This document shows, piece by piece, positions 6,179 to 18,836 of a DNA stretch of 24,000 nt (position 1 is the first letter of the stretch; every line of letters starts with the position of its first letter). Made by a program: the position numbers and the translations under genes. The notes beneath the pieces were generated by a model. That model ran no database searches, was not told where the DNA came from, and worked only from the letters and a program-made list of their open reading frames with translations. The DNA is taken from NCBI RefSeq assembly GCF_003173035.1, contig NZ_QGLE01000003.1, positions 44,731 to 68,730 of the forward strand. Direction: 5' to 3'. The stretch comes from Zavarzinia aquatilis. GTDB taxonomy: Bacteria; Pseudomonadota; Alphaproteobacteria; Zavarziniales; Zavarziniaceae.

Positions 6179-7342
6179 TTATTGGGCCGGCGGCACGGGG
6201 GCGGCTTCAGTGGGGGCGGCTTCGGTCGGCGTCTCGGGCGCCGGGGGCGCCGCGGGCTTGGGCTCGGCGAGGTCGGCGCGCTTCGGCGTCAGGTCGATGA
6301 CCCGCGTGCCGTCGAGGCGGTAGAGCCAGCCTTTGGTGCGGGCGGCGATGGCGCCGGCCTCGGCCCGCGCGTCCTCCGCCGGGCGGACCACCGGCTGGCC
6401 GCCGGCATCCTGCGCGGGGTCGAGCAGGCGGCTCTCGCCCGCGATCACGGGATCGAAGGCGGCGTCGATGCGGGCCCAGCCCTGACCGTCGATGGAGACG
6501 AGGTCGAGGGTCAGCGTGATGCCGTCGAAGGTCTCGAAGCTCACCCGGCCCAGCGGCGTGCCCGCCGGGGCCTTGTCCGCCGGCTGCACATCCTCGAGCG
6601 CGAGATAGGAGGCGGCGACGGACAGCGCGTTCAGCCGTGCTGCCTTCACCTGCTCGGCACCGGGGTCGAGCCCGTCGAGGCTGAAGACATCGCCCGGTTT
6701 CGCCCGGCTGATCCGGGCGGCCGCGCCGTCGATGGTCACGCTCGCCGCGCGGAAACGGTCGGGCGAGATGACGACGAGATCGCGTTCCAGCCATTGCGCG
6801 GCGTCCCGCTCCAGCCGGACATCGGCCTCCGCTTCCCAGGACTGGGGCTGGCCGACCGGGCGGACGAAGAAGCGCGGCACCTTGGCGGCGCCCATGACCG
6901 ACGACGGCTTGCCGAAGATCATGTCGCCGAAGGCGCTGCCGTCCGGCCCCTTCACCGTCAGCTGCAGGCCCCGGGTGCCGGGGCCGATGTCCTCGACGTC
7001 GATGAAGTGGAAACGGTCGGGCCGCGCGGTCTTCGGCTCGATGGCGCGCAGGTCCGCGAGGGCGAGCAGCAGGCGCTGAACCTTGCCGAAATCGGCCGGA
7101 TAGTCGCCCTTTTCGGCCATGACCCAATGGTCGGCGCCGACGCGCTTCAGGGTGAAGCGGCCTTCGGCCCCGGCGACGTCGACTTCGGTCACATCGTTCA
7201 GCCGGGCCTTCAGCCCGGGCAGCATCAGCTGGCCGGAGAGATCGGCGCTGGTCTGCGCGATCTTGTTGGCGACGAGCCAGGCGCCCACGGCGGCAAGCGC
7301 GAGGGTGAAGCCCAGCAGGATGGCGAGGGTGGAGCGGCGCAT
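6179..7342 (-). CDS. DUF4340-like protein, last gene of the ABC-2/GldG-like operon
   Basis: ATG at 7342-7340 ('MRRSTLAILLGFTLALAAVGAWLV' N-terminal membrane anchor). Position immediately downstream of the GldG-like gene (11-nt gap) is the usual DUF4340 context. Ala/Pro-rich C-terminal tail. The upstream part of track ORF 6179..7873 is Arg/Gly/Pro artefact overlapping the GldG-like CDS. Confidence 0.75.
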   Translation of the reverse strand: MRRSTLAILLGFTLALAAVGAWLVANKIAQTSADLSGQLMLPGLKARLNDVTEVDVAGAEGRFTLKRVGADHWVMAEKGDYPADFGKVQRLLLALADLRAIEPKTARPDRFHFIDVEDIGPGTRGLQLTVKGPDGSAFGDMIFGKPSSVMGAAKVPRFFVRPVGQPQSWEAEADVRLERDAAQWLERDLVVISPDRFRAASVTIDGAAARISRAKPGDVFSLDGLDPGAEQVKAARLNALSVAASYLALEDVQPADKAPAGTPLGRVSFETFDGITLTLDLVSIDGQGWARIDAAFDPVIAGESRLLDPAQDAGGQPVVRPAEDARAEAGAIAARTKGWLYRLDGTRVIDLTPKRADLAEPKPAAPPAPETPTEAAPTEAAPVPPAQ

Positions 7343-7353
7343 GGGCTTCTGCC

Positions 7354-9288
7354 TCAGTTCACGCCGCGCCGCGCCCGGCGCCGGCGCTGGCGGGCCAGCG
7401 ACAGACCGAGGGCGACGAGGGCGACGACGAGGGGCACCAGCCCCATGTTGACGAAACGCAGGTTCGCTTCCAGCCGCTCGATTTCGACATCGAGGCTGCG
7501 CTGCACGTCGCGCAGCTGGCGCCGCGTGGCGGCGACCTCGGCCCGCGCGTCGGCCAGCGCCTTCTCGGTCTCGGCCGAGACGATGGCGCCGCTGCGCGCG
7601 CCATTGGCGCCGCCGCGCAGCTCCTGGATCCGGGCTTCGGTCGCCTGCAGCTTGGCCTGAAGCTCCTGGCTGCGGGTCAGGAATTTCTGCTCCGCCGCCT
7701 TCTTCATGTCGGTGACGACGGTGAACGGCCGGCTGGCCGGACCCCGGCCGCGAATCGCGATCAGGTCGGTGGAGCCGGCCAGATTCTCGACCGCGTTCAC
7801 GATCAGATTGCCATTGTCGGCGATGGGCACCGGCGCCTGGCGCCCGGCGCCCTGACCGCTGTCCTGCAGCCACAGGCGGTCGTCCAGCACGTCGGCGTCG
7901 GCGATGACGATCAGGTTCAGGCTGCCGTCCTTCACCTGCGCCCGCTCGCGCGCGCCGAAGGCCGGGGTCTCGCCCGGCTTGACCGGGTTCGGCTGGTCCT
8001 TCTCGTCGACCTTGGGCGGGCCGTCGGGGAAGGCGGTCCTGGCCGGGCCGGTGACGCGGGCGGCGAGGATGAAGCGCCGGTCCTCCGGCTTGAACAGTTT
8101 GGCGAGGTCTTCCGGATTGCCGGTCATGCGGACGGCGACCGGGTTGAAGGTGCCGGCATTGGCCGTCGTCTCGATCAGCGGCTCGACGTTCGTGGTGGCG
8201 CCGTCCAGCTTCTCGATGGCGCCCGCGGTCGCGAACATCACCTGGCTCAGGTCGCCGGTCACGATGTCGGCGGGGTTCATCTGCGCCTTGCCGGCGCGCA
8301 GCCAGACCAGATAATCCATCGGCCGGCGGTTGCCCGCGACCGTGACCTTGGTGGCGAGGTCGCCGTCGCCCACCACCTTCTCGGTGTCGACCTTGAAGCC
8401 CCAGGCGGCGGCCAGCGGCCCGATATCCGAGGCGGTCTGCGGCGGGGGCGCGCCGCGCTGGGCGCCCTGCATCGCGACTTCCGCGTTGGGGTCGAGGATG
8501 ACCACGGCCTTGCCGCCGCCCATCACGAACTGGTCGATGGCATAGAGCTGCTGCGGCCCGAGGCGGGGCGGATGGGCGATCAGCAACAGGTCGACATGGC
8601 TGCCGATCTCGACGAAATCGGGCGCCATCTGGCGGACGTCATAAAGCTCCGACAGCTGGGAATAGACCGCGAAGGGGTGGGACTGGCCGCGCAGCGCCGC
8701 CATCGGCCCGCCGAAGCCGACATCGAGCGGCAGCGACGAGATGACGCCCAGCACCGGCTTCCGCTCGGCGGTCAGCGAGACGATCATCCGCGCGAAATCA
8801 TATTCGAGGAAGGATTCCCGGTCGGGCGTGATCACCGGAATGACCTCGCGCCCGCCGATGGGTCCGGTGCCGACGAGGCCGAAATAGAAACTCTCGCCCG
8901 AGGGCGTGTCGTTCCCCTGGATGCCGGCGGCGACCGCCTCGTCCTCGGTCAGCGTGTAGGAGATGGGGTCGATGATCTCGACCCGGACCTTGCCGCCGCC
9001 CGCCCGCCGGAAGGCGTCGAGCAGCTCGGTCACCCGCCCGGCGAAAGTCTTGATCGCCGGAAACTGGTTGGACAGGGTCGCCGAATAGAACAGGCGAAGG
9101 GTCACCGGCTCGTCCAGCTTGTCGAGCACGGAACGGGTGCCGGGCGACAGCGTGTAGAGCTGGCGCTCGGTCAGGTCGAGGCGAAGCCCGGCGCCGCCGA
9201 CCTGCACGATCAGGTTGGTGGCGAGGAACAGGGCGGCGATCAGCACAAGCGCAAGGCCGCCGGCGACGCGGACGCGGGTGGGGGCCAT
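7354..9288 (-). CDS. GldG-like ABC-transporter-associated protein (ABC-type uncharacterised transport system auxiliary component)
   Basis: N-terminal TM helix followed by 'LTERQLYTLSPGTRSVLDKLDEPVTLRLFYS', which is typical of GldG-family proteins. C-terminal coiled-coil ('QELQAKLQATEARIQELR...') plus a terminal TM helix and an 'RQRRRRARR' stop-transfer sequence. Lies downstream of an ABC-2 permease. Confidence 0.85.
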   Translation of the reverse strand: MAPTRVRVAGGLALVLIAALFLATNLIVQVGGAGLRLDLTERQLYTLSPGTRSVLDKLDEPVTLRLFYSATLSNQFPAIKTFAGRVTELLDAFRRAGGGKVRVEIIDPISYTLTEDEAVAAGIQGNDTPSGESFYFGLVGTGPIGGREVIPVITPDRESFLEYDFARMIVSLTAERKPVLGVISSLPLDVGFGGPMAALRGQSHPFAVYSQLSELYDVRQMAPDFVEIGSHVDLLLIAHPPRLGPQQLYAIDQFVMGGGKAVVILDPNAEVAMQGAQRGAPPPQTASDIGPLAAAWGFKVDTEKVVGDGDLATKVTVAGNRRPMDYLVWLRAGKAQMNPADIVTGDLSQVMFATAGAIEKLDGATTNVEPLIETTANAGTFNPVAVRMTGNPEDLAKLFKPEDRRFILAARVTGPARTAFPDGPPKVDEKDQPNPVKPGETPAFGARERAQVKDGSLNLIVIADADVLDDRLWLQDSGQGAGRQAPVPIADNGNLIVNAVENLAGSTDLIAIRGRGPASRPFTVVTDMKKAAEQKFLTRSQELQAKLQATEARIQELRGGANGARSGAIVSAETEKALADARAEVAATRRQLRDVQRSLDVEIERLEANLRFVNMGLVPLVVALVALGLSLARQRRRRARRGVN

Positions 9289-9292
9289 CGGA

Positions 9293-10027
9293 TCAGCTCG
9301 CCTTCTTCATGTCGATGACGATGGCATTGGCCGCCAGCGCGGCCAGGATCAGCGAGGCGAAGAAGACGATGTCCTTCGCCTCGATGACGCCCGCGACGAT
9401 GCCGTTGAAATGGGTCAGGAAACTGAACGACGCGACGGTGTCGACGATCGCCTGCGGCGCCCAGCCCGAAAAGGCGTCGAGCACCATGGGCGCGCCCGAG
9501 ACCGTGAACAGGAAGCAGACGACGACCGTCAGCACGAAGGCGACCACCTGATTGCGCGTCGCCGCCGACAGGCAGGAGCCGATGGCGAGATAGGCCCCGG
9601 CCATCAGCAGCGAGCCGATATAGCCGGCGAGGATGACGCCATTATCGGGCTCGCCCAGGTAATTCACCGTGATCCACATCGGGAAGGTGAGGGCGAGGGC
9701 GATGGCGGTGAAGGCCCAGGCGGCGATGAACTTGCCCGCGATGGCCGCCCACAGCGGCACCGGCAGGGTCAGCAGCAATTCGATGGTGCCGCTTTTCCGC
9801 TCCTCGGCCCACAAGCGCATGGCGATGGCCGGGATCAGGAACAGATAGAGCCAGGGGTGGAAATCGAAGAAGGGCACCAGGTCGGCCTCGCCCCGCTCGA
9901 AGAAATTACCGACATAGAAGGTGAAGATGCCGGTCAGGAACAGGTAGACGATGATGAAGACATAGGCGAGCGGCGTGGCGAAATAGCCGGCCAGCTCGCG
10001 CCGCGCGATGGTACAGACGGACTTCAT
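9293..10027 (-). CDS. ABC-2 type transporter permease
   Basis: ATG at 10027-10025 ('MKSVCTIARRELAGYFATPLAYVFI') with a multi-TM hydrophobic profile. Its start overlaps the ATPase stop by 4 nt (ATGA). The upstream part of track ORF 9293..10390 is artefact. Confidence 0.85.
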   Translation of the reverse strand: MKSVCTIARRELAGYFATPLAYVFIIVYLFLTGIFTFYVGNFFERGEADLVPFFDFHPWLYLFLIPAIAMRLWAEERKSGTIELLLTLPVPLWAAIAGKFIAAWAFTAIALALTFPMWITVNYLGEPDNGVILAGYIGSLLMAGAYLAIGSCLSAATRNQVVAFVLTVVVCFLFTVSGAPMVLDAFSGWAPQAIVDTVASFSFLTHFNGIVAGVIEAKDIVFFASLILAALAANAIVIDMKKAS

Positions 10028-11052
10028 GGCCGGGCTCCGGTGCGGGCGGCGTCGCTGGTGGTCAGGTCGCGGAAGACGTCTTCCAGCTTGCCGTGTTCGA
10101 CCGCCATGGTCTCGATGGCGATGCCGGTCTGGCGCAGGCGCGCCGCCACCCCTTCGATGATGCTGGCGCCCTGCGCCGGCACGACGAGGAAATCGCGCCC
10201 CGGCGTGCCGCCCTCGGGCGTCGTCACCCGCGTCACCCCCGCCACGTCGGCCAGCCGCGCGCCGAGATCGGCGACGGTGGCGATCAGGCGCAGGCGCACC
10301 GCGTTGTGGAAGGGCGAGCGGGCGACCAGATCGGCCGGCTTGCCGTCGGCGACGACACGGCCCCGGTCGATGATCACCGCCCGGCTGCACACCGCCTCGA
10401 CCTCCTCGAGGATATGGGTGGAGACGACGATGGCCTTGTCCGGCGCCATGCGGCGGATCAGGTTGCGCACCTCGTGCTTCTGGTTGGGGTCGAGGCCGTC
10501 GGTCGGCTCGTCGAGAATCAGGCAGGGCGGATCGTGCAGGATCGCCCCGGCGAGGCCGACCCGGCGCTTGAAGCCCTTGGACAGGGTCTCGATCGGCTGG
10601 TCCAGCACGGCGGCGAGCTGAATCTCGTCGACCACCTGCGCCAGCCGCCCGGCCAGCGCCGCCCGCTCCAGCCCGCGCACCCGGCCGAGGAATTCGAGGA
10701 AGCTGCGGGGCGTCATGTCGCCATAAGCCGGCGCGCCTTCCGGCAGATAGCCCAGCGCCCGCTTGGCCGCGATGGCGTCGTTCTCGACGTCATGGCCGGC
10801 GATGGCGATGCGGCCCCGCGTCGGCGACAGGAAACCGGCCGCCATCTTCATGGTCGTGGACTTGCCGGCGCCATTCGGCCCGAGAAAGCCCAGAACCTCG
10901 CCCCGCCCGACCGCGAAGGAGACACCGTCGACGGCGGTGAAGGGCCCGAAGCGTTTCACCAGATCGACGATCTCGATCATCGGCGCGGCGGCATCCTCGA
11001 CGGCGCCAACCCTGGCATTCCGAACGGCGGGTTCATCCAACATGCGGCTCAT
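10024..11052 (-). CDS. ABC transporter ATP-binding protein
   Basis: Walker A 'GPNGAGKST', signature 'LSKGFKRRV' and Walker B 'CLILDEPTDGLD'. The start is uncertain: ATG at 11052, 11043 or 10980 ('MIEIVDLVKRFG'), none with a strong SD. Confidence 0.9.
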   Translation of the reverse strand: MSRMLDEPAVRNARVGAVEDAAAPMIEIVDLVKRFGPFTAVDGVSFAVGRGEVLGFLGPNGAGKSTTMKMAAGFLSPTRGRIAIAGHDVENDAIAAKRALGYLPEGAPAYGDMTPRSFLEFLGRVRGLERAALAGRLAQVVDEIQLAAVLDQPIETLSKGFKRRVGLAGAILHDPPCLILDEPTDGLDPNQKHEVRNLIRRMAPDKAIVVSTHILEEVEAVCSRAVIIDRGRVVADGKPADLVARSPFHNAVRLRLIATVADLGARLADVAGVTRVTTPEGGTPGRDFLVVPAQGASIIEGVAARLRQTGIAIETMAVEHGKLEDVFRDLTTSDAARTGARP

Positions 11053-11166
11053 CCAATTCGGGCATCCAGCGCGGGCAAACCCCGGCGGCGCAGGCTATGT
11101 GCCGGCACGGCGCGGATCAAGCGCGTTTCGGCGCGACAGCTTCGGAAGGGGAGGGGCATCGGGTGG

Positions 11167-11204
11167 TCCGCCGGACACGAGGGGGGGCTTTTGCGTCCGG
11201 CGGA
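11167..11204. other. Perfect 10-bp inverted repeat (stem-loop) upstream of the ABC operon
   Basis: 'tccgccggac' (11167-11176) and 'gtccggcgga' (11195-11204) are exact reverse complements separated by 18 nt. Confidence 0.4.
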
Positions 11205-11215
11205 ACCGACGGTCC

Positions 11216-11279
11216 GGACCGACCGAACATCAGGAAGGGGGCTGGGGGCTTGGGGGTCTTCCTGACATCCGGTCGGGCC
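11216..11279. other. Imperfect 22-nt inverted repeat enclosing a G5-run loop
   Basis: The arm 'ggaccgaccgaacatcaggaag' (11216-11237) pairs with 'cttcctgacatccggtcgggcc' (11258-11279) at 18/22 positions. The loop is 'gggggctgggggcttgggggt'. Confidence 0.35.
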
Positions 11280-11451
11280 ATCGTTGAGGACCAACGCTGA
11301 TGAAAATGCCCCCCCAATAGGGCCGCCGAAGGGCCGAATCTGGGCAAAAGCGTGGCGGGGGGAGGGAGGGGCTAAGGCAAATCGTCGTTCAGGTGAAAGC
11401 AGGATCATAGGGTCGGAAGGCATTTTAGTGTTTGGCGGGCAGATATTGAAT

Positions 11452-11498
11452 ATAGCGTCCCCAAAATTTCTCAAAATTTCTAGCGTCTCCAAAATTTC
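11452..11498 (+). repeat. Direct repeats at the left edge of the islet
   Basis: 'tagcgtccccaaaatttc' (11452-11469) and 'tagcgtctccaaaatttc' (11480-11497) match at 17/18. 'caaaatttct' is perfectly tandem at 11461-11470 and 11471-11480. This gives three CAAAATTTC units within 38 nt, about 330 nt upstream of the cassette. Confidence 0.6.
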
Positions 11499-11826
11499 CA
11501 GATTTATGATAGAGGCTGTATGATAGAAAAAATCCAAAACGGGAGGAAAATAAATTGCCCATCACCCGGCGGGGTGAAGACGCTGTATCATTTTGGATTT
11601 ATCTTTGTGGGAAGCGATCAATTATTGCGATAAAATCGCTTTTGATGATTTAAGATCAAAGTAATAAATTTGCATTTATATGCACGTTCTCCAGAATTAG
11701 TCGGAATTATGTTAAAATTTTCTATATAGTTTCTATAAATATTTATGTATCAATGAGTTACATCGAATGTAAGTGAAATCTGTTTCATACGAGTTGTTCG
11801 GAATCGAATCTCAGGAAGGCAATATA

Positions 11827-12384
11827 ATGAAGATATCAACAATTTATATAAAATGCCGCATGATTAAGGCGCTAAGAAAGATTAATGGTAAATGCATTTA
11901 TGCTATCGCCATTATATTAGTATTTTTTCCTTCAAGATTTTCAAAAGCGCAAGATGATGATATGTGTGATATTGTAAAAAATTTAGTATTTCAATTGCAA
12001 ACCGATCCGAGTGCGCTGCACGGAGAAGACGCAAAAAGAGATAATGAATTTATTGTTTCGATGCCGAGGGTAGTTCTTCCAAATGCGGAGGAATGTGAAA
12101 TCAGCACTAGTGATGACCGAGGAGGGTTGTATTACAGTTACGAATGCGCTTGGCCGCAAAATAAAGGGACGGACGAGGCGGATGCAAGGAAATTTGGCTA
12201 TGAACTTGCGAAATATATTTCAGAATGTTATGAGGTAAAGATTAATAATCAAGAAAAATCAGAGAGGGTGCGGTGGTGGGGTAATATACGTAGTAATGGT
12301 CAATCGACGAGATTCGAGGTAATTGTCCCATTGGGATTAAGATACAATAGGATTTCATTAAGATTCGGGGGGATTTCAGAATGA
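11827..12384 (+). CDS. Hypothetical exported protein (islet ORF A), 185 aa
   Basis: ATG at 11827 is preceded by 'AGGAAGG' (the track start at 11773 is a GTG with no SD). An alternative ATG lies at 11860. Sec-type signal 'MIKALRKINGKCIYAIAIILVFFPSRFSKA|QDDD'. Four Cys in the mature part. Its stop overlaps the ORF B start (ATGA at 12381-12384). No family recognised. Confidence 0.65.
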   Translation: MKISTIYIKCRMIKALRKINGKCIYAIAIILVFFPSRFSKAQDDDMCDIVKNLVFQLQTDPSALHGEDAKRDNEFIVSMPRVVLPNAEECEISTSDDRGGLYYSYECAWPQNKGTDEADARKFGYELAKYISECYEVKINNQEKSERVRWWGNIRSNGQSTRFEVIVPLGLRYNRISLRFGGISE

Positions 12385-13193
12385 GGGGTGATCGCCGTGA
12401 TTTTATCTTGTCTGTCTTGGGGGCTTATTGCGGCGGGTGCATCTGTGCTGTGCCGCGGGCGTTCGCGCAGTTCCCGCCAGCTCGCACCGATGGGCCAGAT
12501 CTTGGTCCTGAGTCCGATTTGAATCAATATTCATCGCGAGCCCGTCGTGCCTATCACGGTTGTGGCTTACGTTCGAATAGCGAGCTCCAAGCAACTTTTG
12601 GCGGATCTCAGTTCGGGAGTTCTACGGGGATTCCCGTGCTAGATGCTGGTCTGAATCGGGAACTTGATTACCTCAAGCGATTATTTCAAGTTAATCCGGG
12701 GGTTTTTACATACGCGGACAATAATGCTTTCGCGACTCCTGAGAAGATCATGGGGCACGATTATCCAGATGGAACGGTTGTTGTTGGAATCTCACTGATA
12801 TACGAGTTGTTTAGAAAATTCCAGGGGACCAGCTCAATCAGCATGGGAGATCATGCGCTGGTTGGTGTGCTGGCCCATGAATTTGGCCATATTGTTTTTT
12901 TCAAGAAGATGCAAAATTGGCTATCAGGGAAGCGTCCTGAGTTGCATGCTGATTTTCTCGCTGGTTGGTATACCGGGTGCCGTGCCTTAGATATTCCTGG
13001 GCAGGTCAATATCCAAGAAATATCTAAGCAGATGTTTGATATCGGGGACACGGACTTCAATAGTCCAAGTCACCATGGAACTCACGAAGAGCGGCTTGGG
13101 TTTTATACCTCTGGCTTAAGAATGGTTCTTCAAAATGGTCGGGTTCCCATTGATGCTGCATTTAGTGAAGCGAGTAGGATTTTAGGTTTGTAA
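12381..13193 (+). CDS. Tat-signal zinc metallopeptidase (gluzincin-type HExxH...ExxxD), islet ORF B, 270 aa
   Basis: Twin-arginine motif 'DRRDFIL', a hydrophobic stretch and 'AFA|Q' (aa 1-30). 'NAFATP' lies upstream of 'VLAHEFGHIVFF' (HEFGH at 12876-12890). 'ELHADFLAG' (12939-12965) begins 17 residues after the second His, comparable to thermolysin 'NEAISDIFG' and to the 'ELQAD' of YpfJ-type neutral metallopeptidases. Confidence 0.8.
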   Translation: MRGDRRDFILSVLGAYCGGCICAVPRAFAQFPPARTDGPDLGPESDLNQYSSRARRAYHGCGLRSNSELQATFGGSQFGSSTGIPVLDAGLNRELDYLKRLFQVNPGVFTYADNNAFATPEKIMGHDYPDGTVVVGISLIYELFRKFQGTSSISMGDHALVGVLAHEFGHIVFFKKMQNWLSGKRPELHADFLAGWYTGCRALDIPGQVNIQEISKQMFDIGDTDFNSPSHHGTHEERLGFYTSGLRMVLQNGRVPIDAAFSEASRILGL

Positions 13194-13240
13194 TTTAAAT
13201 GAAATTGTAGAAATGTTTGGTTAATGGAGGGGGGGGTAAA

Positions 13241-13615
13241 ATGTTCTTGAACAAATATATGATATTTTTTCTTAGTATAGTTCTTGAAGGTAATGCCGCT
13301 CTGGCTTATAATAGAAGTGAATTATTTATAACATGGTCTGGAGAAAACGATATCGGATGTTTTCTTATGAGCCCAAGAGGTCAGCAAACCTATCATGTGC
13401 CTAATAAAATGGAATCTACCGATAGAAAAATAGTTCTAATTGGGAATTCTGTGGAGCGCGGGGCATATACCATAAGTTGTGAGGTGATTGCTAAGCGAGA
13501 TTCGCGCCGCTTAAAATTCAAAGTATTTCTGCAGAATGGGAATGAAATTTTATTTACGTTTGATGGATTTACGGGAAATTCGGTTTCAGATTATTACAAA
13601 TTTGAAATTCCCTGA
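13241..13615 (+). CDS. Small hypothetical exported protein (islet ORF C), 124 aa
   Basis: ATG at 13241 is preceded by 'GGAGGGGGGGG' 4 nt upstream (the track start at 13217 is a TTG). Sec-type signal 'MFLNKYMIFFLSIVLEGNAALA|YN'. The mature ~102 aa have two Cys and alternating hydrophobic, beta-strand-like patterns ('KFKVFLQNGNEILFTFDGF'). No family recognised. Confidence 0.6.
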   Translation: MFLNKYMIFFLSIVLEGNAALAYNRSELFITWSGENDIGCFLMSPRGQQTYHVPNKMESTDRKIVLIGNSVERGAYTISCEVIAKRDSRRLKFKVFLQNGNEILFTFDGFTGNSVSDYYKFEIP

Positions 13616-13876
13616 ATCAAAATTTGATTTTGGAATTTAATTTTATTGGTACTATTTTTATGGATGATTTCGAGATTTTATTGAGCGTGGAATTGGTAAA
13701 AATTAATAGTTCTTGATAAAAAATATTCATGCCACCTAATTCTGTTGAATTTAATTTCAATGCTATATTGGCGCATTTGCCGAATTTCTCACCTCCTGTA
13801 TCAGGCAAGTGTGTACTGAAATGGCAATTGGCTGACGGTGCCGCATTTATGGGCAGGGCTTCAGGCCGCTTTCTGA

Positions 13877-13963
13877 GGCTTTGCTGACATTACCGAGATC
13901 GGCCGCCAATTCAAGCAAGCTGAGCTTGCGACGTGCTACTTTCTTCTCCGTGGTCATGCTCAT
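13877..13963 (-). pseudogene. Truncated transposase N-terminal (HTH) fragment, IS remnant
   Basis: 'M(S)MTTEKKVARRKLSLLELAADLGNVSKA' matches the conserved N-terminus ('RKLSLLELA..LGNVSKAC..') of a widespread transposase class, remembered as IS481/ISNCY-annotated (family uncertain). Similarity ends after about 27 aa and a stop follows at 13847. The DDE domain is absent. Confidence 0.55.
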
Positions 13964-14019
13964 CTCCGGTTGGGGGGATGTTGCTTGCAACTCCATCAAA
14001 CCCGTCCAGAGGCGGCATA

Positions 14020-14051
14020 GCCACACCGGCCCCGCGCGGGGCCGGTGTGGC
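14020..14051 (-). terminator. Perfect 14-bp GC hairpin downstream of the paraoxonase-like gene
   Basis: 'gccacaccggcccc' + 'gcgc' + 'ggggccggtgtggc', 41 nt after the minus-strand stop at 14093. No U-tract follows on either strand, so terminator function is not certain. Confidence 0.45.
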
Positions 14052-14092
14052 TCGAACTGTCGGGTCGTTACCCTCTCAGCACGCACAAAAGA

Positions 14093-15178
14093 TCACCGCC
14101 CCCGGCAATCCAGCACCTTCTCCTCGAACACCGACCCCACCAGGAACCGCTTCGGCCCCGCGTAAGTCGCGACCGAGGCGCCGGAGATCAGGTGGCCGGG
14201 GTCGGTGAGGATGGTCTCGACGTTAAGGCCATCGCCCTGGGGCGTGAGGCGGAGCACTTCCGAGGGGGAGAGTTTGGCGGGGTCGGCGGCGTGGGCGACG
14301 AAGTCGAGGAGGTGGGGGTGGCCGGCGACCCAGAGGGAGCCGTCGGGCGCCATGTCGATATTGTCGGCGCCGTTCGGCACCGGGGTCGAGGACAGCAGGG
14401 TGAGGCTGCCGCTGTCCCTGTCGCGGGCGTAAGTGCGAACGGCGAAACCCGTCGTCTCGGCGAGATAGAGCCGGCTGCCGTCGGGCGAGAGGCCGAGGCC
14501 ATTGGCGAAGCGGATGCCATCGGCCACCGGGCGGAAGCCCTTGCCGTCGAAATAGACCACATTGGCGCGCGGCAGCTGGAGGTAATTCTCGGCCATGAGG
14601 CCGAGCGTGGTGCGCGAGCCATGGTCGTTGCTGGCATAGAATTGTTCGGGGCCGACGGCGAGCACGTCGTTGGGCGAATTCATCTCGGCGCCGATCACCC
14701 CGCCCTTGTGGCTCAGCTTGCCGTCGGCGGCGACGTCGAACAATTCCACCCGGCTGATGCCGATGGCGTTCAGCCCGCCTTCGACATGATTGACGACGAA
14801 GAGGGTGCGGGCGCCGCTCGCCGGGTCGGTCCACAGGCTGATGCCATGGGGATGGAACGTCTCGGGCACCGGCGGCGTCACGTCGACCGGCACCGGGTTG
14901 GCGGCCGAGAGGTCGAGGAGGGCGATCCGCCCGCGCACCGGATTGCCGGCCATCAGGGCGCGGCGGTCGTCGATGGAGACGAAGGCCTGATGGCGGGACA
15001 GGTCGGCGACGATATCCTCCGCCCCGACGACGCCGGTGATCGCCGTGCATTGCACGTCGCCCGTCGCCTCGATGGCGCGGAACTGGCCCGCCTTGTCCAT
15101 CAGCAGGGCGGCGCCCCCGGCGCAGAGGGCGAAGACGGCGACGCCCGTCACGATCAGGCGCTTGCCCCAGCTGTTCAT
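14093..15178 (-). CDS. Paraoxonase/arylesterase-like (PON family) six-bladed beta-propeller hydrolase, probable lactonase
   Basis: By-eye alignment to mammalian PON1 as remembered: 'FHPHGISLW' vs 'FNPHGISTF', 'NDVLAVGPEQFYASNDH' vs 'NDIVAVGPEHFYGTNDH', 'FANGLGLSPDG' vs 'FANGINISPDG', 'SLWVAGHP' vs 'DLWVGCHP', 'SEVLRL' vs 'SEVLRI', and 'GSVFEEKVLDC' vs 'GTVFHKALYC'. N-terminal signal or anchor 'KRLIVTGVAVFALCAGGAALL'. SD 'GAGGAGAGAGAG' precedes the ATG at 15178. Confidence 0.8.
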   Translation of the reverse strand: MNSWGKRLIVTGVAVFALCAGGAALLMDKAGQFRAIEATGDVQCTAITGVVGAEDIVADLSRHQAFVSIDDRRALMAGNPVRGRIALLDLSAANPVPVDVTPPVPETFHPHGISLWTDPASGARTLFVVNHVEGGLNAIGISRVELFDVAADGKLSHKGGVIGAEMNSPNDVLAVGPEQFYASNDHGSRTTLGLMAENYLQLPRANVVYFDGKGFRPVADGIRFANGLGLSPDGSRLYLAETTGFAVRTYARDRDSGSLTLLSSTPVPNGADNIDMAPDGSLWVAGHPHLLDFVAHAADPAKLSPSEVLRLTPQGDGLNVETILTDPGHLISGASVATYAGPKRFLVGSVFEEKVLDCRGR

Positions 15179-15210
15179 CTCTCTCTCCTCAGGTATTGTT
15201 TCGTTATGTC

Positions 15211-15230
15211 CCCGGGGTCTTCGCCCCGGG
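15211..15230 (-). terminator. Short GC hairpin between the ABCB exporter stop and the PON-like gene start
   Basis: 'cccgggg' + 'tcttcg' + 'ccccggg' forms a 7-bp stem. There is no U-tract, so it may only attenuate read-through. Confidence 0.3.
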
Positions 15231-15241
15231 TTGATCTGATC

Positions 15242-17041
15242 TCAGTCGTGGCGGGCGCGCGCCTCCGCCTCGCCGAACTGGAGGGCGGCCAGTCTCGCAT
15301 AGAGGCCGCCCCTTGCCACCAGCTCGGCGTGGGTGCCGGTCTCGGCGATGCGCCCCTCGTCGAGGACGATGATGCGGTCGGCGTTGATCACGGTCGCCAG
15401 GCGATGGGCGATGACGAGGGTGGTGCGGCCCTGCATCAGGCGGTCGAGGGCGCTTTGCACCTGAACTTCCGATTCCGCGTCGAGGGCGGATGTCGCCTCG
15501 TCGAGCAGCAGGATCTTGGGGTCGCGCAGCATGGCCCGGGCGATGGCGATGCGCTGCTTCTGCCCGCCGGACAGGCGCACGCCCCGCTCGCCCAGCTGCG
15601 CGGCGAAACCGCCCGGCAATTGCTCGATGAAACCCCGGGCGGAGGCGCCTTCGGCGGCGGCCAGCACCTCGGCGTCGCTCGCCTCCGGCCGGCCGTAACG
15701 GATGTTGGCGGCGGCGTCGGTGGCGAATATCGTGGTTTCCTGCGGCACCAGGGCGAAGAGCCGGCGTAGATCAACCGGGTCCAGCTCGCGGATGTCGATG
15801 CCGTCGACCGTGATCCGCCCGGCTTCCGGATCGTGGAAGCGGAGGAGGAGCTGGAACACCGTGGTCTTGCCGGCGCCGGACGGGCCGACCAGCGCCACGC
15901 TCTCGCCCGGGCGGACGGTGAAGCTGAGGTCTTGCAGCGCCGGCAGATCGGGCCGCGAGGGATAGTGGAAGGTCACCCCCTCGAAGGCGATGGTGCCCGT
16001 CGGCTGGGCGGGCAGGGGGCGCGGCTGATCGGGCGCGCGGATGGCGGGCACGATGGCGAGGAGTTCGAGCAGGCGCTCGGTCGCGCCGGCCGCGCGTTGC
16101 AGGTCGCCCCAGACTTCCGACAGGGCACCCAGGGCGCCCGCGGCGACGATGGCATAGAACACGAAGGCCGCGAGATCGCCGCCCGACATGGCGCCGGAAG
16201 CGACATCGCTCGCCCCGGTCCACAGGATGAGATCGATCGCCCCGAAGACGAGGGTGATGACGAGGGCGGTGAGCCAGGCGCGGGTGCGGATGCGCTGGCG
16301 GGCGGTGCCGAAGGCGCTTTCGACCGTGGCGCCATAGCGCGCGGCTTCGCCCGTCTCCTGCCCGAAGGCCTGCACGGTATGGACGGCGGACAGGGTCTCG
16401 TTGGCGACGGCGGCGGAATCCGCCAGCTTGTCCTGGCTCGCCCGCGACAGACCGCGCACCCGCCGCCCGAAGATCAGGATGGGCAGCAGGACGAGCGGCA
16501 CGACGAGCAACAGGAGCAGCGAGAGCTTGACCGAGGTGACGACGAGCAGCGCCGAGCCGCCGAGGAACATGAGCAGGTTGCGGAGGGCGACCGAGGCGGA
16601 GGAGCCCACGACAGCCTCGATCACCATCGTGTCGGAATTCAGCCGCGACAGGATCTCGCCGGTCTTGGTCGTCTCGAAGAAGGTGGCGTCCAGCTTGACG
16701 ACATGGCCATAGAGCGTGCGGCGCAGGTCGGCGATCACCCGCTCGCCCAGCCAGGACACCATGTAGAAACGGCCATAGGTGGCGAAGGCCAGCACGACGA
16801 CGACGCCGAGCAGGGCGATGAAATAGATGTCGAGATGGCCGCCCGCGGCGTTGGCGCTGCCGAAGCCGTTGTCGATCAGGCGCTTGATCGCCTGACCGAT
16901 GGTCAGGGTCGCGCTGGCGGCGACGAAGAGCGAGACGAGGGCGACGAGAACGCGAAAGCGATAGGGACGGATGAAGGGCCAGAGCGCGCGCAGTTTGGGG
17001 ATGGGATTGCCGCGGCGCTTCTCCGCGGGGGCGTCAGACAT
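15242..17041 (-). CDS. ABCB-type half-transporter (fused permease + ATPase; MsbA/Mdl1/ABCB10-like exporter)
   Basis: N-terminal six-TM domain. Walker A 'GPSGAGKTT', signature 'LSGGQKQRIAIARA' and Walker B 'ILLLDEATSALD'. Its ATG at 17041-17039 overlaps the cyaY stop by 8 nt (ATGTCTGA). Confidence 0.9.
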   Translation of the reverse strand: MSDAPAEKRRGNPIPKLRALWPFIRPYRFRVLVALVSLFVAASATLTIGQAIKRLIDNGFGSANAAGGHLDIYFIALLGVVVVLAFATYGRFYMVSWLGERVIADLRRTLYGHVVKLDATFFETTKTGEILSRLNSDTMVIEAVVGSSASVALRNLLMFLGGSALLVVTSVKLSLLLLLVVPLVLLPILIFGRRVRGLSRASQDKLADSAAVANETLSAVHTVQAFGQETGEAARYGATVESAFGTARQRIRTRAWLTALVITLVFGAIDLILWTGASDVASGAMSGGDLAAFVFYAIVAAGALGALSEVWGDLQRAAGATERLLELLAIVPAIRAPDQPRPLPAQPTGTIAFEGVTFHYPSRPDLPALQDLSFTVRPGESVALVGPSGAGKTTVFQLLLRFHDPEAGRITVDGIDIRELDPVDLRRLFALVPQETTIFATDAAANIRYGRPEASDAEVLAAAEGASARGFIEQLPGGFAAQLGERGVRLSGGQKQRIAIARAMLRDPKILLLDEATSALDAESEVQVQSALDRLMQGRTTLVIAHRLATVINADRIIVLDEGRIAETGTHAELVARGGLYARLAALQFGEAEARARHD

Positions 17042-17363
17042 TCTCGCCCACCTCGATGCCGACGGCGGCGAGATCGGCCACCAGCCGCGCCGTCATCGCC
17101 TCGCCGCCCCTTGTCGAGAACCAGCCGTCGCGTTCCCCGTCGAAGGCATAGTGATGGGCGCCCGAGACGGGGGAGGACAGCCAGACCTGACGCAAGGGAT
17201 TGTGCCGGTTCAGGACGAAGGTGCGGCCGTCCTCGGTCTCGGCCTGGAGCACGCCGTCGATCAGTTCCAGCTCGTCGAAGCCTTCCGATTCCTCGAAGAC
17301 GTCGAGCCAGAACGCGAGGCAGTGCTCGGCCCGGTTCCTGAAGTCCGTATCGTCCTGCGCCAT
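17034..17363 (-). CDS. cyaY: Iron donor protein CyaY (bacterial frataxin)
   Basis: 109 aa. 'VLNRHNPLRQVWLSSPVSGAHHY' aligns with E. coli CyaY '[22 protein letters not shown]'. The acidic N-terminal helix ('FEESEGFDELELIDGVL') is typical of frataxins. Confidence 0.85.
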   Translation of the reverse strand: MAQDDTDFRNRAEHCLAFWLDVFEESEGFDELELIDGVLQAETEDGRTFVLNRHNPLRQVWLSSPVSGAHHYAFDGERDGWFSTRGGEAMTARLVADLAAVGIEVGENV

Positions 17364-17427
17364 CCATCAACTCCCCGGCGGAATGGCCGAAAGAGTTACG
17401 ACGATTGCCCCGGAGAGGGAAGGGGCA

Positions 17428-17447
17428 GACGGCGCATTTGCGCCGTC
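17428..17447 (-). terminator. Hairpin downstream of the DOPA-dioxygenase-like gene
   Basis: 'gacggcgc' + 'attt' + 'gcgccgtc' forms an 8-bp stem, 10 nt after the minus-strand stop at 17458. No clear U-tract. Confidence 0.35.
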
Positions 17448-17457
17448 CCGGGGGCTC

Positions 17458-18237
17458 TTATGCAGCCCGCGCACTGCCCCAGGCATCCATGGCGAGGATG
17501 CCGTAGGTGTAGGCGCGGTGCCAGGCGACCGCCGCCTCGCCCGCGTCGAGGGCGCCGAGCACGGTGAACAGGGGCAGCAGATGCTCCTCCGTCGGGTGGT
17601 TCTGCGGCCCGAAGGGGGCCTTTTCCCGATAGGCGAGCAGGCTGTCGATGTCATGGGCGGCGATCCGCTCCGCCACCCAGTCGGCGAAGGCGGTGACCCA
17701 GGGCTTGGGCGGCTGTTCCTGCACCGGACTGCGGAATTCATGGAGATTGTGGGTCAGCGAGCCGGAGCCGAGAATCAGCACGCCCTCGTCCCGCAGCGGC
17801 CGCAACGCCTGCCCGACGGCATAGGCGTGGGCCGGCCCCTCCATGGTCTGCACCGAAAGCTGGGTCGCCGGCACGTCGGCCGCCGGATAGGCCAGCTTCA
17901 AGGGCACCCAGGCGCCATGGTCGAGGCCGCGCGCCTCGTCGATCATGGTGCCGGGCAGCAGCTGGGCGACCCTTGCGGCGAGGTCGGGGGCGCCGGGGGC
18001 GGGATATTGCATCTCGAACAGGGCGCGGGGGAAGCCGCCGAAATCATGGATGGTGCGGGGTTTCAGCACGGCCGAGACCCGGGGGCTGGCCGTTTCCCAA
18101 TGGGCCGAGACGACAAGGATCGCCTGCGGCTTCGGCATGGTGGCGCCGAGGCCCATCATGAAGCGGTGGGTCGCGCCGTCGTCCAGCGCCAGCATGGGCG
18201 AGCCGTGACCGACGAACACAGTGGGCATACGCGACAT
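17458..18237 (-). CDS. ygiD: 4,5-DOPA dioxygenase extradiol-like (class III extradiol dioxygenase, YgiD family)
   Basis: 'PTVFVGHGSPM', 'VSAHWET', 'DHGAWVPL' and 'GSGSLTHNL' are motifs of the LigB/DODA family. Start at ATG 18237-18235 ('MSRMPTVF'). Confidence 0.85.
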   Translation of the reverse strand: MSRMPTVFVGHGSPMLALDDGATHRFMMGLGATMPKPQAILVVSAHWETASPRVSAVLKPRTIHDFGGFPRALFEMQYPAPGAPDLAARVAQLLPGTMIDEARGLDHGAWVPLKLAYPAADVPATQLSVQTMEGPAHAYAVGQALRPLRDEGVLILGSGSLTHNLHEFRSPVQEQPPKPWVTAFADWVAERIAAHDIDSLLAYREKAPFGPQNHPTEEHLLPLFTVLGALDAGEAAVAWHRAYTYGILAMDAWGSARAA

Positions 18238-18316
18238 GATCAATCCTTTCCGGGCGCGGTCATCTTGCGCCCCGCCGCGCCCCCGGCACAAGACCGGGGG
18301 GCGGCACGGCCCGCCG

Positions 18317-18733: not shown

Positions 18734-18796
18734 GATGAAATCTCCGGACGGCGTGAATGCCGTGACCCCTTCAACATGCGTCTTGTTCGCACATTA

Positions 18797-18826
18797 TTGA
18801 AATTGATGTTTGTGAGGATATATATT
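18797..18826 (+). promoter_or_regulatory. Candidate sigma-70 promoter of the LysR gene
   Basis: TTGAAA (18797-18802), an 18-nt spacer, then TATATT (18821-18826). The predicted TSS is only a few nt before the ATG at 18837, and no SD is visible. Confidence 0.35.
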
Positions 18827-18836
18827 TCCGTTTGTG

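What the first reader, a model, noticed from the sequence alone, without database searches (positions are those of the whole stretch)
12381..13193. Tat-exported gluzincin-like metallopeptidase with a long pre-catalytic region
The sequence shows a twin-arginine signal (DRRDFIL...AFA|Q), 'NAFATP', HEFGH (12876-12890) and ELHAD (12939-12953). The ExxxD begins 17 residues after the second His, a thermolysin- or YpfJ-like spacing. Tat export implies folding, and probably zinc loading, in the cytoplasm, which is hazardous for an active protease. Residues ~31-105 may therefore be a propeptide, or a partner protein may keep the enzyme inactive. The signal-peptide region is noticeably more GC-rich than the rest of the islet, which hints at a mosaic origin or amelioration.
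Basis: partly seen in the sequence, partly recalled or inferred. Interest (0 to 1): 0.65.

Follow-up and report, generated by a model that had tools for sequence, protein, structure and literature searches.

The report
Secreted FP0506-type zinc protease with partner
This gene encodes a secreted zinc protease related to a fish-pathogen elastin-degrading enzyme, and it sits with a small partner gene on a strain-specific piece of foreign DNA; it is a new branch of a little-studied protease family, not a new kind of system.

Summary
ORF 12381-13193 (270 aa) carries DRRDFIL…AFA|Q, NAFATP, HEFGH and ELHAD at the stated coordinates, and Glu187 lies 17 residues after His170. About 86 database relatives keep H166, E167, H170, E187, A190, D191, H232 and R238 invariant or nearly so.

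The protein belongs to the family of FP0506, the Flavobacterium psychrophilum elastinase (hhalign 99.6%, E = 8e-24). That family has no Pfam or NCBIfam model. It is a sister of YpfJ/PF04228 (97.6%, E = 4e-12) and has an M48-like fold (3C37, BepA).

The twin-arginine motif is conserved in most proteobacterial members, but no Tat HMM calls the window protein, so Tat export is probable rather than shown.

The propeptide idea is not supported. Residues 25-58 are a disordered linker of variable length. Residues 60-105 are a conserved part of the catalytic domain, which starts at a near-invariant lone Cys61.

The upstream gene, which overlaps by ATGA, is a conserved partner specific to this clade. 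It is Sec-exported, has four cysteines and a PsbP-like fold, so it cannot protect the cytoplasm.

The genes lie on a 2.7 kb, 40% GC islet in a variable hotspot of a Zavarzinia genome. Interest is moderate.

The parts
11363..14094 (.). Strain-specific low-GC islet (0.40 GC against 0.69 outside) in a variable hotspot between the ABC-ATPase gene and the arylesterase/SGL gene.
   Evidence: Synteny with Zavarzinia relatives L092-L094 (92-94% identity) covers window 7250-11362 and 14095-19031 only. The relatives carry a different 1.9 kb cargo there, a GmrSD_N protein plus a ~200 aa ORF.
11827..12384 (+). Partner gene (185 aa as called; the start is probably the ATG at 11860). Sec-type signal peptide ending ...SKA|QDDD, four invariant Cys, PsbP/MTC28/DcrB/Eag-like alpha-beta fold.
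   Evidence: Homologs are adjacent to the peptidase in all 9 independent loci of the window's clade, as tandem paralogs in four of them. Only 7 representatives were found among 1.84 billion proteins. AF2 mean pLDDT is 82, with the mature domain above 90. Foldseek probability is 0.97-1.0 but TM only 0.3-0.4.
12381..13193 (+). FP0506-family gluzincin metallopeptidase, 270 aa.
12381..12467 (+). Predicted twin-arginine signal peptide, residues 1-29: n-region with R5-R6 (12393-12398), h-region FILSVLGAYCGGCICAV, c-region PRAFA, cleavage before Q30.
   Evidence: Read directly from the sequence. RR is conserved across the family. The Tat HMMs are silent on this protein and weak on its relatives.
12429..12446 (+). 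Cys cluster C17-x2-C20-x-C22 at the end of the signal peptide's h-region.
   Evidence: CC or CxC motifs occur in 41 of 66 Tat-type N-termini against 6 of 31 non-Tat N-termini (Fisher p = 9e-5, not corrected for phylogeny).
12468..12557 (+). Disordered, low-complexity linker of variable length (residues 30-59).
   Evidence: pLDDT is below 50 for residues 25-42 and 46-58. The region varies in length or is absent in homologs.
12561..12563 (+). Cys61, a near-invariant lone cysteine at the start of the folded domain.
   Evidence: Present in 74 of 75 sequences that cover the column. 29 of 74 members have no other Cys downstream. It aligns with the 'KEC' cysteine of FP0506.
12723..12740 (+). NAFATP, predicted upper-rim edge strand of the active-site cleft.
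   Evidence: N115 in 82 of 85, A116 in 85 of 85. It aligns to 'NAFATG' of HtpX 3cqb and 'NAFAFF' of BepA. Model strand E116-119.
12876..12890 (+). HEFGH: zinc ligands H166 and H170, general base E167, in the active-site helix (model helix 157-176).
12939..12953 (+). ELHAD: third zinc ligand E187 plus A190 and D191 in the 'glutamate helix' (model helix 184-204).
   Evidence: E187, A190 and D191 are invariant in 86 of 86. The motif aligns to ELQAD of YpfJ and ELEAD of FP0506.
13044..13094 (+). G222-D223 ... H231-H232-G-T ... R238 motif of the C-terminal subdomain. H232 is the candidate fourth ligand or transition-state residue.
   Evidence: G222, H232, G233 and R238 are invariant. The motif aligns to IGDD...THGTSQQR of YpfJ and IGDN...GHHGTPAQRR of FP0506. 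PMC6414381 predicts the equivalent His as a fourth metal ligand, as seen in 3C37.
13241..13615 (+). Orphan downstream ORF (124 aa, Sec-like signal peptide) on the same islet. Whether it belongs to the module is unproven.
   Evidence: No family hit and no homolog in any fetched locus.
13847..13963 (-). Truncated transposase-like HTH remnant (MSMTTEKKVARRKLSLLELAADLGNVSKA...) at the right edge of the low-GC DNA.
   Evidence: No Pfam hit. The resemblance to IS N-termini comes from my own knowledge.

Best explanation
The ORF encodes a secreted zinc endopeptidase of the FP0506 family. That family is a compact gluzincin sister group of YpfJ/PF04228 with an M48-like catalytic fold.

Inferred mechanism:
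- Zinc is held by H166 and H170 of the active-site helix and by E187 of the following 'glutamate helix'.
- E167 activates the water.
- D191 and A190 shape the ligand shell.
- The NAFAT strand aligns the substrate backbone.
- The invariant H232 (with H231, D223 and R238) from the C-terminal subdomain sits at the metal. It acts either as a transition-state residue or as a reversible fourth ligand that auto-inhibits, as seen in 3C37.

Inferred export and maturation:
- The precursor has a twin-arginine signal peptide (residues 1-29). It is most likely exported folded by Tat and cut after AFA.
- That leaves a roughly 30-residue flexible tether ahead of the domain, which begins at the conserved Cys61.

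The partner gene:
- The peptidase is translationally coupled (ATGA) to an upstream gene for a Sec-exported, disulfide-bonded, PsbP-fold protein. That protein co-occurs with this clade of the peptidase everywhere it was examined.
- It most likely binds the enzyme in the periplasm, as a cognate inhibitor or immunity protein, or as an adaptor.

The whole cassette is horizontally acquired cargo in a variable hotspot of a Zavarzinia chromosome.

Shown: homology, motif conservation, fold class, gene linkage and the islet. Inferred: metal geometry, Tat use, cleavage site, proteolytic activity and the partner's role.
For: Family:
- hhalign of the 86-sequence profile against FP0506 gives 99.6%, E = 7.8e-24 over 200 columns, from the conserved Cys to the C-terminal helices.
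- hmmsearch gives 119 bits (E = 1.5e-32, Z = 1e6) for FP0506, 47 bits for YpfJ, and nothing significant for BepA.
- BLASTP of P0001 against FP0506 gives E = 4e-8.
- FP0506 confers elastin degradation when expressed in a deficient strain (PMC6414381).
- KPN_02809/YpfJ hydrolyses casein, and an H171S mutation abolishes that (PMC3269727).
- hhalign against YpfJ gives 97.6%, E = 4e-12.

Fold:
- The AF2 model has pLDDT 84.7, with the core above 90. It shows the canonical three strands, backing helix, active-site helix and glutamate helix.
- Foldseek's top hits are 3c37 and BepA at probability 0.97-0.99.
- The family profile hits HtpX 3cqb at E = 0.003.

Conservation.

Tat: motif and conservation. 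A relative passes TIGR01409.

Partner.

Islet.
Against: - No Tat HMM hits the window protein, and no dedicated predictor was available.
- Model coordinates are not exposed, so convergence of H166, H170 and E187 rests on homology and secondary structure, not on measured distances.
- Foldseek TM-scores are only 0.37-0.45.
- Identity to FP0506 is low (37% over 89 residues), so substrate specificity cannot be transferred.
- FP0506's activity was shown on plates, not with purified enzyme.
- The partner resembles no known protease inhibitor. More distant clades have different neighbours.
Confidence: 0.7

Rival explanations
1. The cassette is a toxin-immunity or competition module. The peptidase would be a harmful envelope-active enzyme, and the upstream PsbP-fold protein its periplasmic immunity protein or inhibitor that protects the producer.
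For: - The cassette occupies a hotspot that holds a GmrSD-type defence gene in sister genomes.
- The partner is tightly linked, translationally coupled and often tandemly duplicated.
- Different peptidase clades have different upstream secreted partners, the kind of variable pairing seen in effector-immunity pairs.
- From my own knowledge, protease-inhibitor operons exist (AprA/Inh, potempins, emfourin; PMC9505478 covers the protealysin/emfourin system).
Against: - No secretion-system marker, delivery domain or neighbouring T6SS, CDI or T2SS genes were seen.
- PADLOC has no hit.
- A Tat or Sec signal sends the enzyme to the producer's own periplasm.
- The characterised relative, FP0506, is a nutritional or virulence exoprotease without such a partner.
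Confidence: 0.2
2. The N-terminal segment is not a cleaved signal peptide. It is an uncleaved Tat or Sec signal anchor, as in Rieske proteins. Its CxxCxC cluster, possibly together with Cys61, would bind a metal or form disulfides that tether or regulate a membrane-anchored enzyme.
For: - CxC or CC, often followed by His, recurs at the end of the h-region in Tat-type members.
- Weak sub-threshold hits of relatives to the Rieske Tat-signal model PF10399.
- Cys61 is unpaired in many members.
- E. coli YpfJ has an N-terminal hydrophobic (probable membrane-anchor) segment (sequence).
Against: - A good AxA-Q signal-peptidase site is conserved after the h-region.
- Sec-type and lipoprotein members lack the CxC but keep Cys61.
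- The PF10399 hits are far below its cutoff.
Confidence: 0.15
3. It is simply a divergent YpfJ or M48 housekeeping protease that does periplasmic quality control, as BepA or HtpX do.
For: Weak hits to NF050010 (E = 0.005) and PF01435 (E = 0.01). 64 of 86 members touch the YpfJ model and 27 of 86 touch M48. Fold matches to BepA and 3c37.
Against: - All scores fall far below the curated cutoffs (16.5 against 250 bits; 16.1 against 20.3 bits).
- The His-to-Glu spacing is 17, against 32 in YpfJ and 61 in BepA.
- There is no TPR domain or TM segments.
- The gene is strain-specific cargo absent from sister Zavarzinia genomes, so it is not housekeeping.
Confidence: 0.05
4. The protein is exported by Sec, and the RR pair is incidental.
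For: Tat HMMs do not call the window protein. Family members in Bacteroidota use Sec or lipoprotein signals.
Against: RR is kept in about 60-65 of about 70 aligned N-termini, with K only rarely. The context is consensus-like ([STD]-R-R-x-F-[LI]), and there is a basic residue in the c-region.
Confidence: 0.2

Closest known systems
FP0506, the elastin-degrading lipoprotein metalloprotease of Flavobacterium psychrophilum (Rochat et al. 2019, PMC6414381)
   Same: - Same family by profile comparison (99.6%, E = 8e-24; 119 bits).
- Similar size, about 270-296 aa.
- Shares HExxH, E-x-x-A-D 17-20 residues later, the IGD...HHGTxxxR motif with the predicted fourth His, the conserved N-terminal Cys, and the NAF-type strand.
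- Same weak relatives (PF04228 ahead of M48) and the same best template, 3C37.
   Different: - FP0506 is a lipoprotein predicted to be surface-exposed. Its authors reported it as restricted to Flavobacteriaceae.
- It has no coupled upstream partner: the 330 bp upstream is intergenic (supplement Fig. S3).
- The window protein is alphaproteobacterial. It has a twin-arginine signal with a Cys cluster, a disordered tether and a dedicated partner gene.
- Identity is only about 37% over the catalytic core, so elastin specificity cannot be assumed.
YpfJ / KPN_02809 neutral zinc metallopeptidase (PF04228, NF050010, COG2321)
   Same: Homologous catalytic domain with all motifs in register: HExGH, ELQAD-x-AG, IGDD, HGTxxQR. 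KPN_02809 is a zinc-dependent caseinolytic enzyme (PMC3269727).
   Different: - Scores are far below the family cutoffs.
- The second His of the HExGHH signature is missing here (HEFGHI).
- His-to-Glu spacing is 17 against 32.
- NAFATP replaces GPFYCP.
- YpfJ has an N-terminal hydrophobic (probable membrane-anchor) segment rather than a Tat signal, and lacks the Cys61 region.
Soluble M48 peptidases (Geobacter Q74D82 / PDB 3C37; E. coli BepA, PDB 6AIT and 6SAR; HtpX 3CQB)
   Same: Closest solved folds (Foldseek probability 0.97-0.99). Shared NAFA strand, HExxH helix and ExxAD glutamate helix. 3C37 has a fourth His ligand that blocks the cleft, and from my own knowledge BepA does too. This matches the invariant H232 here.
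   Different: - TM-scores are only 0.37-0.45.
- The Pfam M48 score is below the gathering threshold.
- M48 has about 60 residues between HExxH and the Glu.
- There is no TPR domain (BepA) and no TM helices (HtpX).
Protease plus co-transcribed cognate inhibitor operons (serralysin AprA/Inh, Tannerella potempins, protealysin/emfourin)
   Same: A small protein gene is adjacent to the metalloprotease gene, co-oriented and translationally coupled. The partner is periplasmic.
   Different: The partner's PsbP/MTC28/DcrB/Eag-like fold matches no known inhibitor family, and inhibition is untested. This comparison rests on my own knowledge of those systems. Only the protealysin/emfourin paper turned up in the literature search, and I did not read it.

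Membership tests
FP0506-like gluzincin family | Significant profile similarity across the whole catalytic domain | tested here: met
   hhalign 99.6%, E = 7.8e-24, 200 columns. hmmsearch 118.9 bits. BLASTP E = 4e-8.
FP0506-like gluzincin family | HExxH followed about 17-23 residues later by an invariant E-x-x-A(-D) glutamate-helix motif | tested here: met
   H166/E167/H170 and E187/A190/D191. Spacing is 17 here, 20 in FP0506, and 16-26 across nearly all of the family (two outliers at 30 and 52).
FP0506-like gluzincin family | C-terminal IGD...HHGTxxxR motif containing the predicted fourth metal-binding His | tested here: met
   G222, D223, H231, H232, G233 and R238 are invariant or nearly so and aligned. 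The ligand role is predicted in PMC6414381.
FP0506-like gluzincin family | Lipoprotein signal and surface exposure; restricted to Flavobacteriaceae (as described by the authors) | tested here: not met
   The window protein has an RR-type signal with an AxA site, no lipobox, and an alphaproteobacterial host. This is a feature of the published description, not of the catalytic family.
FP0506-like gluzincin family | Elastinolytic or general proteolytic activity | not testable with these tools
   Needs enzyme assays.
YpfJ / KPN_02809 (NF050010, PF04228) | Score at or above the curated cutoff | tested here: not met
   NF050010 scores 16.5 bits against a cutoff of 250. PF04228 is not hit by the window protein and is hit by only 15 of 86 members, best E = 6e-6.
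YpfJ / KPN_02809 (NF050010, PF04228) | Remote homology of the catalytic domain | tested here: met
   hhalign 97.6%, E = 4e-12, 148 columns. 64 of 86 members touch NF050010.
YpfJ / KPN_02809 (NF050010, PF04228) | HExGHH signature and an N-terminal membrane anchor | tested here: not met
   The window protein has HEFGHI, and an RR signal peptide rather than an anchor.
Peptidase M48 (PF01435) | Pfam gathering score | tested here: not met
   16.1 bits against 20.3. 27 of 86 members hit weakly.
Peptidase M48 (PF01435) | M48-type catalytic fold | tested here: inconclusive
   Foldseek probability is 0.97-0.99 to 3c37 and BepA, but TM is 0.37-0.45 and E about 0.01. The profile hits HtpX 3cqb at E = 0.003 over the N-terminal half.
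Peptidase M48 (PF01435) | About 60-residue insert between HExxH and the Glu ligand | tested here: not met
   Spacing is 17 here against 61 in BepA.
Thermolysin family M4 | Sequence or fold similarity to M4 | tested here: not met
   No M4 Pfam hit. Vibriolysin 3nqx ranks 26th at probability 0.15. Only the HExxH...ExxxD pattern is shared.
Tat (twin-arginine) substrates | Consensus S/T-R-R-x-F-L-K-like motif, uncharged h-region, basic c-region, AxA site | tested here: met
   D-R-R-D-F-I-L, 18 uncharged residues, R26, A-F-A|Q. RR is conserved in the family.
Tat (twin-arginine) substrates | Called by a dedicated Tat model | tested here: not met
   PF10518 and TIGR01409 give no hit on the window N-terminus. 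Relatives score 9-16 bits against PF10518 (cutoff 22.7), and P0003 scores 17.0 against TIGR01409 (cutoff 16.7). TatP, SignalP 6 and TATFIND were not available.
Tat (twin-arginine) substrates | Tat-dependent export | not testable with these tools
   Needs a tatC mutant or an RR-to-KK experiment.
Cysteine-switch zymogens (MMP propeptide, Wss1-type minigluzincins) | Conserved unpaired Cys outside the catalytic motifs | tested here: met
   C61 is present in 74 of 75, and is the only Cys of the mature domain in 29 of 74. The Wss1 precedent is in PMC4559962 (abstract).
Cysteine-switch zymogens (MMP propeptide, Wss1-type minigluzincins) | Cys thiolate positioned on the catalytic zinc | not testable with these tools
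   Model coordinates are not exposed, so no distances could be measured.
Protease-inhibitor operons | Partner belongs to a known inhibitor family or inhibits the enzyme | tested here: not met
   There is no Pfam, NCBIfam or PADLOC hit. The fold is PsbP/MTC28/DcrB/Eag-like. Inhibition itself cannot be tested here.

The most novel reading that the evidence does not exclude
In the proteobacterial Tat-type clade, the signal peptide doubles as a prodomain. Its conserved C-x-C(-His) cluster, the invariant Cys61, or both, would cap the catalytic zinc while the enzyme folds and loads metal in the cytoplasm. This would be a cysteine switch built into a Tat signal, and signal-peptide cleavage after export would be the activation step. 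In the periplasm, the clade-specific Sec-exported PsbP-fold partner would then take over as a cognate inhibitor or immunity factor. The two-gene cassette would move between genomic hotspots that otherwise hold defence genes.
Probability: 0.1. Interest if true: 0.7.

Novelty: new variant of a known kind. Interest (0 to 1): 0.4.

Why it matters
- The FP0506 elastinase family has no Pfam or NCBIfam model. It was described as confined to Flavobacteriaceae lipoproteins. This locus and its 86 relatives show that it reaches Alpha- and Gammaproteobacteria, Acidobacteriota, Armatimonadota and a plasmid.
- Members use three export routes: Tat, Sec and lipoprotein. Clade-specific secreted partner genes accompany the peptidase.
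- That provides material for a proper family definition (a MEROPS or Pfam entry).
- It also gives a tractable pair, enzyme plus PsbP-fold partner, for asking how Tat-exported, metal-loaded proteases are kept harmless.
- It gives one concrete, cheap test of whether a Tat signal peptide can act as a cysteine-switch prodomain.
- If none of that holds, this is simply one more horizontally acquired secreted protease.

Tried and rejected
- PADLOC has no defence-system hit for any of the three islet ORFs.
- Rfam finds nothing relevant in 11000-14300.
- The promoter and terminator scan is no better than shuffles.
- The islet has no DNA match in plasmids.
- The peptidase family is absent from phages and found on only 2 plasmids.
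- No direct repeats flank the islet, and there is no tRNA in the window.
- A single-sequence PDB search gave only noise.
- The word-indexed search with the partner found only the query itself. The exhaustive HMMER search was needed.
- The thermolysin/M4 reading is rejected.
- Cys61 and the CxC motif do not fit the lipobox pattern in general. Only a few members (P0019, P0020, P0031, P0082) have a true LxxC lipobox, and theirs lies upstream of the conserved Cys.
- The downstream ORF has no detectable relatives.
- The IS-like fragment has no Pfam hit.
Full report
**1. The observation**

The ORF at 12381-13193 (+) is real: 270 aa with an ATG start.
- DRRDFIL at residues 4-10.
- An 18-residue uncharged stretch, FILSVLGAYCGGCICAVP.
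- R26, then AFA|Q at residues 27-30.
- NAFATP at residues 115-120 (12723-12740).
- HEFGH at residues 166-170 (12876-12890).
- ELHAD at residues 187-191 (12939-12953).
- E187 lies 17 residues after H170.

The start codon overlaps the stop of the upstream ORF as ATGA (12381-12384).

**2. The motifs are more than chance**

A search of 5.8 billion protein clusters returned only 86 relatives, almost all unnamed and without a Pfam domain. Conservation in their alignment (A2) is as follows.
- Invariant: E187, A190, D191, G195, G222, H232, G233, R238.
- H166, E167 and H170 in 85 of 86. The exception is a decayed copy.
- N115 in 82 of 85; A116 in 85 of 85.
- C61 in 74 of the 75 sequences that cover the column.
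- The distance from the second His to the Glu is 16-26 in nearly all members.

**3. What the protein is**

No curated model claims it. Pfam M48 gives E = 0.01, below the gathering score. NCBIfam YpfJ gives 16.5 bits against a cutoff of 250. PADLOC gives nothing.

Across the family, 64 of 86 members touch the YpfJ model, 27 touch M48 and 15 touch PF04228. All are sub-threshold.

Profile comparison against E. coli YpfJ gives 97.6% and E = 4e-12. HEFGH aligns with HEVGH, ELHADFLAG with ELQADCFAG, IGD with IGDD, and HHGT..ER with THGTSQQR. BepA aligns only through the NAFA strand and the HExxH helix.

The AF2 model has mean pLDDT 84.7, with residues 70-270 mostly above 90. It has three strands, a backing helix (137-147), an active-site helix (157-176) and a glutamate helix (184-204). 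This is the canonical gluzincin layout.

Its only credible PDB neighbours are the soluble M48 enzymes 3C37 and BepA, at probability 0.97-0.99 and TM 0.37-0.45. The family profile also finds HtpX 3CQB at E = 0.003.

**4. The key link**

A literature search for PF04228 led to FP0506, the elastin-degrading lipoprotein of Flavobacterium psychrophilum (PMC6414381). The authors describe it as a probable new gluzincin family. It has HExxH and ExxA about 20 residues later. By HHpred its best hit is PF04228, then M48. Its best template is 3C37, and it has a predicted fourth His ligand.

Its sequence is printed in their supplement. Three comparisons place the window protein in that family.
- The family profile matches it at 99.6%, E = 7.8e-24, over 200 columns, from the conserved Cys to the C-terminal helices.
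- hmmsearch gives 119 bits, against 47 bits for YpfJ and nothing for BepA.
- BLASTP against the window protein gives E = 4e-8.

FP0506 confers elastinolysis in a deficient strain. The YpfJ orthologue KPN_02809 hydrolyses casein in a way that depends on the HExxH motif (PMC3269727). Proteolytic activity is therefore the reasonable default.

**5. Export**

The N-terminus fits the Tat consensus at motif level. RR is kept in about 60-65 of about 70 aligned N-termini.

Bacteroidota members instead have Sec signals ending ...AQ|C, and a few members have lipoboxes.

Neither Tat HMM hits the window protein. Its closest relatives score weakly, and one (P0003) passes TIGR01409. Tat export is therefore probable but not shown.

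**6. The 'long pre-catalytic region'**

Residues 25-58 are predicted to be disordered, and the stretch between the signal peptide and the conserved Cys varies in length or is almost absent in homologs. This is a tether.

Residues 60-105 are conserved, fold confidently and align to FP0506 and YpfJ. They are part of the catalytic domain. I find no evidence for a folded propeptide.

Two cysteine features remain unexplained.
- Cys61 is as conserved as the catalytic residues. In 29 of 74 members it is the only Cys of the mature domain.
- Tat-type members usually carry a CC or CxC motif, often followed by His, at the end of the signal peptide's h-region. The count is 41 of 66 Tat-type against 6 of 31 others (Fisher p = 9e-5, not corrected for phylogeny).

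A cysteine switch is known in the minigluzincin Wss1 (PMC4559962). Whether either feature caps the zinc could not be tested, because model coordinates are not exposed.

**7. The neighbourhood**

The upstream ORF (11827-12384) is a conserved partner.
- Homologs lie next to the peptidase in all nine independent loci of the window's clade: the window, L001, L004, L087, L088, L089, L090, L091 and L013.
- Two of those loci (L001, L087) show the same ATGA overlap, and four carry the partner as tandem paralogs.
- The family is extremely rare, with 7 representatives among 1.84 billion proteins.
- It has a Sec-type signal, four invariant Cys, and invariant H65, D68, W109, Q111 and N112.
- The mature domain models confidently, with pLDDT above 90.
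- The fold is a PsbP/MTC28/DcrB/Eag-like sandwich. That is a protein-binding scaffold, not a known inhibitor fold.

Because it goes through Sec and needs disulfides, the partner can meet the enzyme only in the periplasm.

More distant clades have other upstream secreted proteins. One is a CxFLEC protein with an F5/8-type C domain. Several others end in a Pro-rich linker followed by C-x-x-Y-P-[ND]-L-C.

**8. The islet**

Flanking proteins are at least 90% identical to those of Zavarzinia sp.. Synteny with three Zavarzinia assemblies stops at 11362 and resumes at 14095. Between those points they carry a different low-GC cargo: a GmrSD_N protein plus a ~200 aa ORF.

The window's 2.7 kb insert is 40% GC against 69% outside it. 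It ends next to a truncated transposase-like HTH ORF. It has no flanking repeats and no tRNA.

The cassette is therefore strain-specific, horizontally acquired cargo in a variable hotspot.

**9. The GC remark**

The signal-peptide region is 0.60 GC, against 0.46 for the rest of the gene. That is more than its amino-acid content predicts (P about 0.004).

Homologs show a smaller rise of the same kind. The closest relatives are homologous from residue 1. A recent mosaic origin is therefore not needed.

**10. Verdict**

This is a correct observation of a real secreted zinc protease. It is best filed as a proteobacterial, probably Tat-exported variant of the FP0506/YpfJ-like gluzincins, with a dedicated periplasmic partner.

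It is a useful extension of a barely described family and raises a few testable questions. It is not a new kind of system.

Noticed in passing
window 11363-14094 against L092 4896-6785: The slot between the ABC-ATPase gene and the arylesterase/SGL gene is a variable hotspot in Zavarzinia. Sister genomes carry a GmrSD_N (DUF262) protein plus a 196-209 aa ORF on a different low-GC (0.48) insert where the window has the peptidase cassette.
   Followed up: partly
window 13847-13963 (- strand): A truncated ORF, MSMTTEKKVARRKLSLLELAADLGNVSKA..., resembles the HTH N-terminus of an IS transposase. It is cut off where the low-GC DNA begins. It has no Pfam hit.
   Followed up: partly
window 13241-13615 (+): An orphan 124 aa ORF with a Sec-like signal peptide lies downstream of the peptidase on the same islet. 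It has no family hit and no homolog in any fetched locus.
   Followed up: partly
window 11453-11498: Two copies of an 18 nt repeat, TAGCGTCYCCAAAATTTC, starting 28 nt apart, lie in the AT-rich leader upstream of the partner gene. They may be an operator or a promoter element.
   Followed up: no
L008 4155-4916; L011 4097-4897; L025 3977-4888; L095 3430-3927: In another clade of the peptidase, including a copy on Enterobacter roggenkampii plasmid pK666_111k, the upstream secreted proteins have different N-terminal domains (one is DUF1036). All end with a Pro-rich linker followed by C-x-x-Y-P-[ND]-L-C at the extreme C-terminus. This may be a shared recognition or plug peptide for the protease.
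   Followed up: partly
L018 4086-4961; L022 3966-4718; L023 4046-4717: Hyphomicrobiaceae copies of the peptidase are preceded by a secreted protein with a C-V-F-L-E-C motif just after its signal peptide and a NADase_transloc / F5/8-type C domain (PF25302, E = 5e-30).
   Followed up: partly
L001 3046-5004: In the locus of the relative P0004 (52% identical to the window protein), four consecutive small unannotated ORFs (113, 132, 198 and 177 aa), at least three of them with signal-peptide-like N-termini, precede the peptidase. Only the last one is the PsbP-like partner.
   Followed up: no
window 14019-14052: A perfect 17+17 nt GC-rich palindrome lies just downstream of the arylesterase gene's stop codon, inside the non-syntenic segment. 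It is probably a terminator.
   Followed up: no
L088 1520-2770 and 6057-6656: The locus of relative P0008 also carries a Peptidase_C1/C39_2 protein immediately upstream of the partner gene, and a second faint M48-like ORF downstream. This suggests a cluster of secreted proteases.
   Followed up: no
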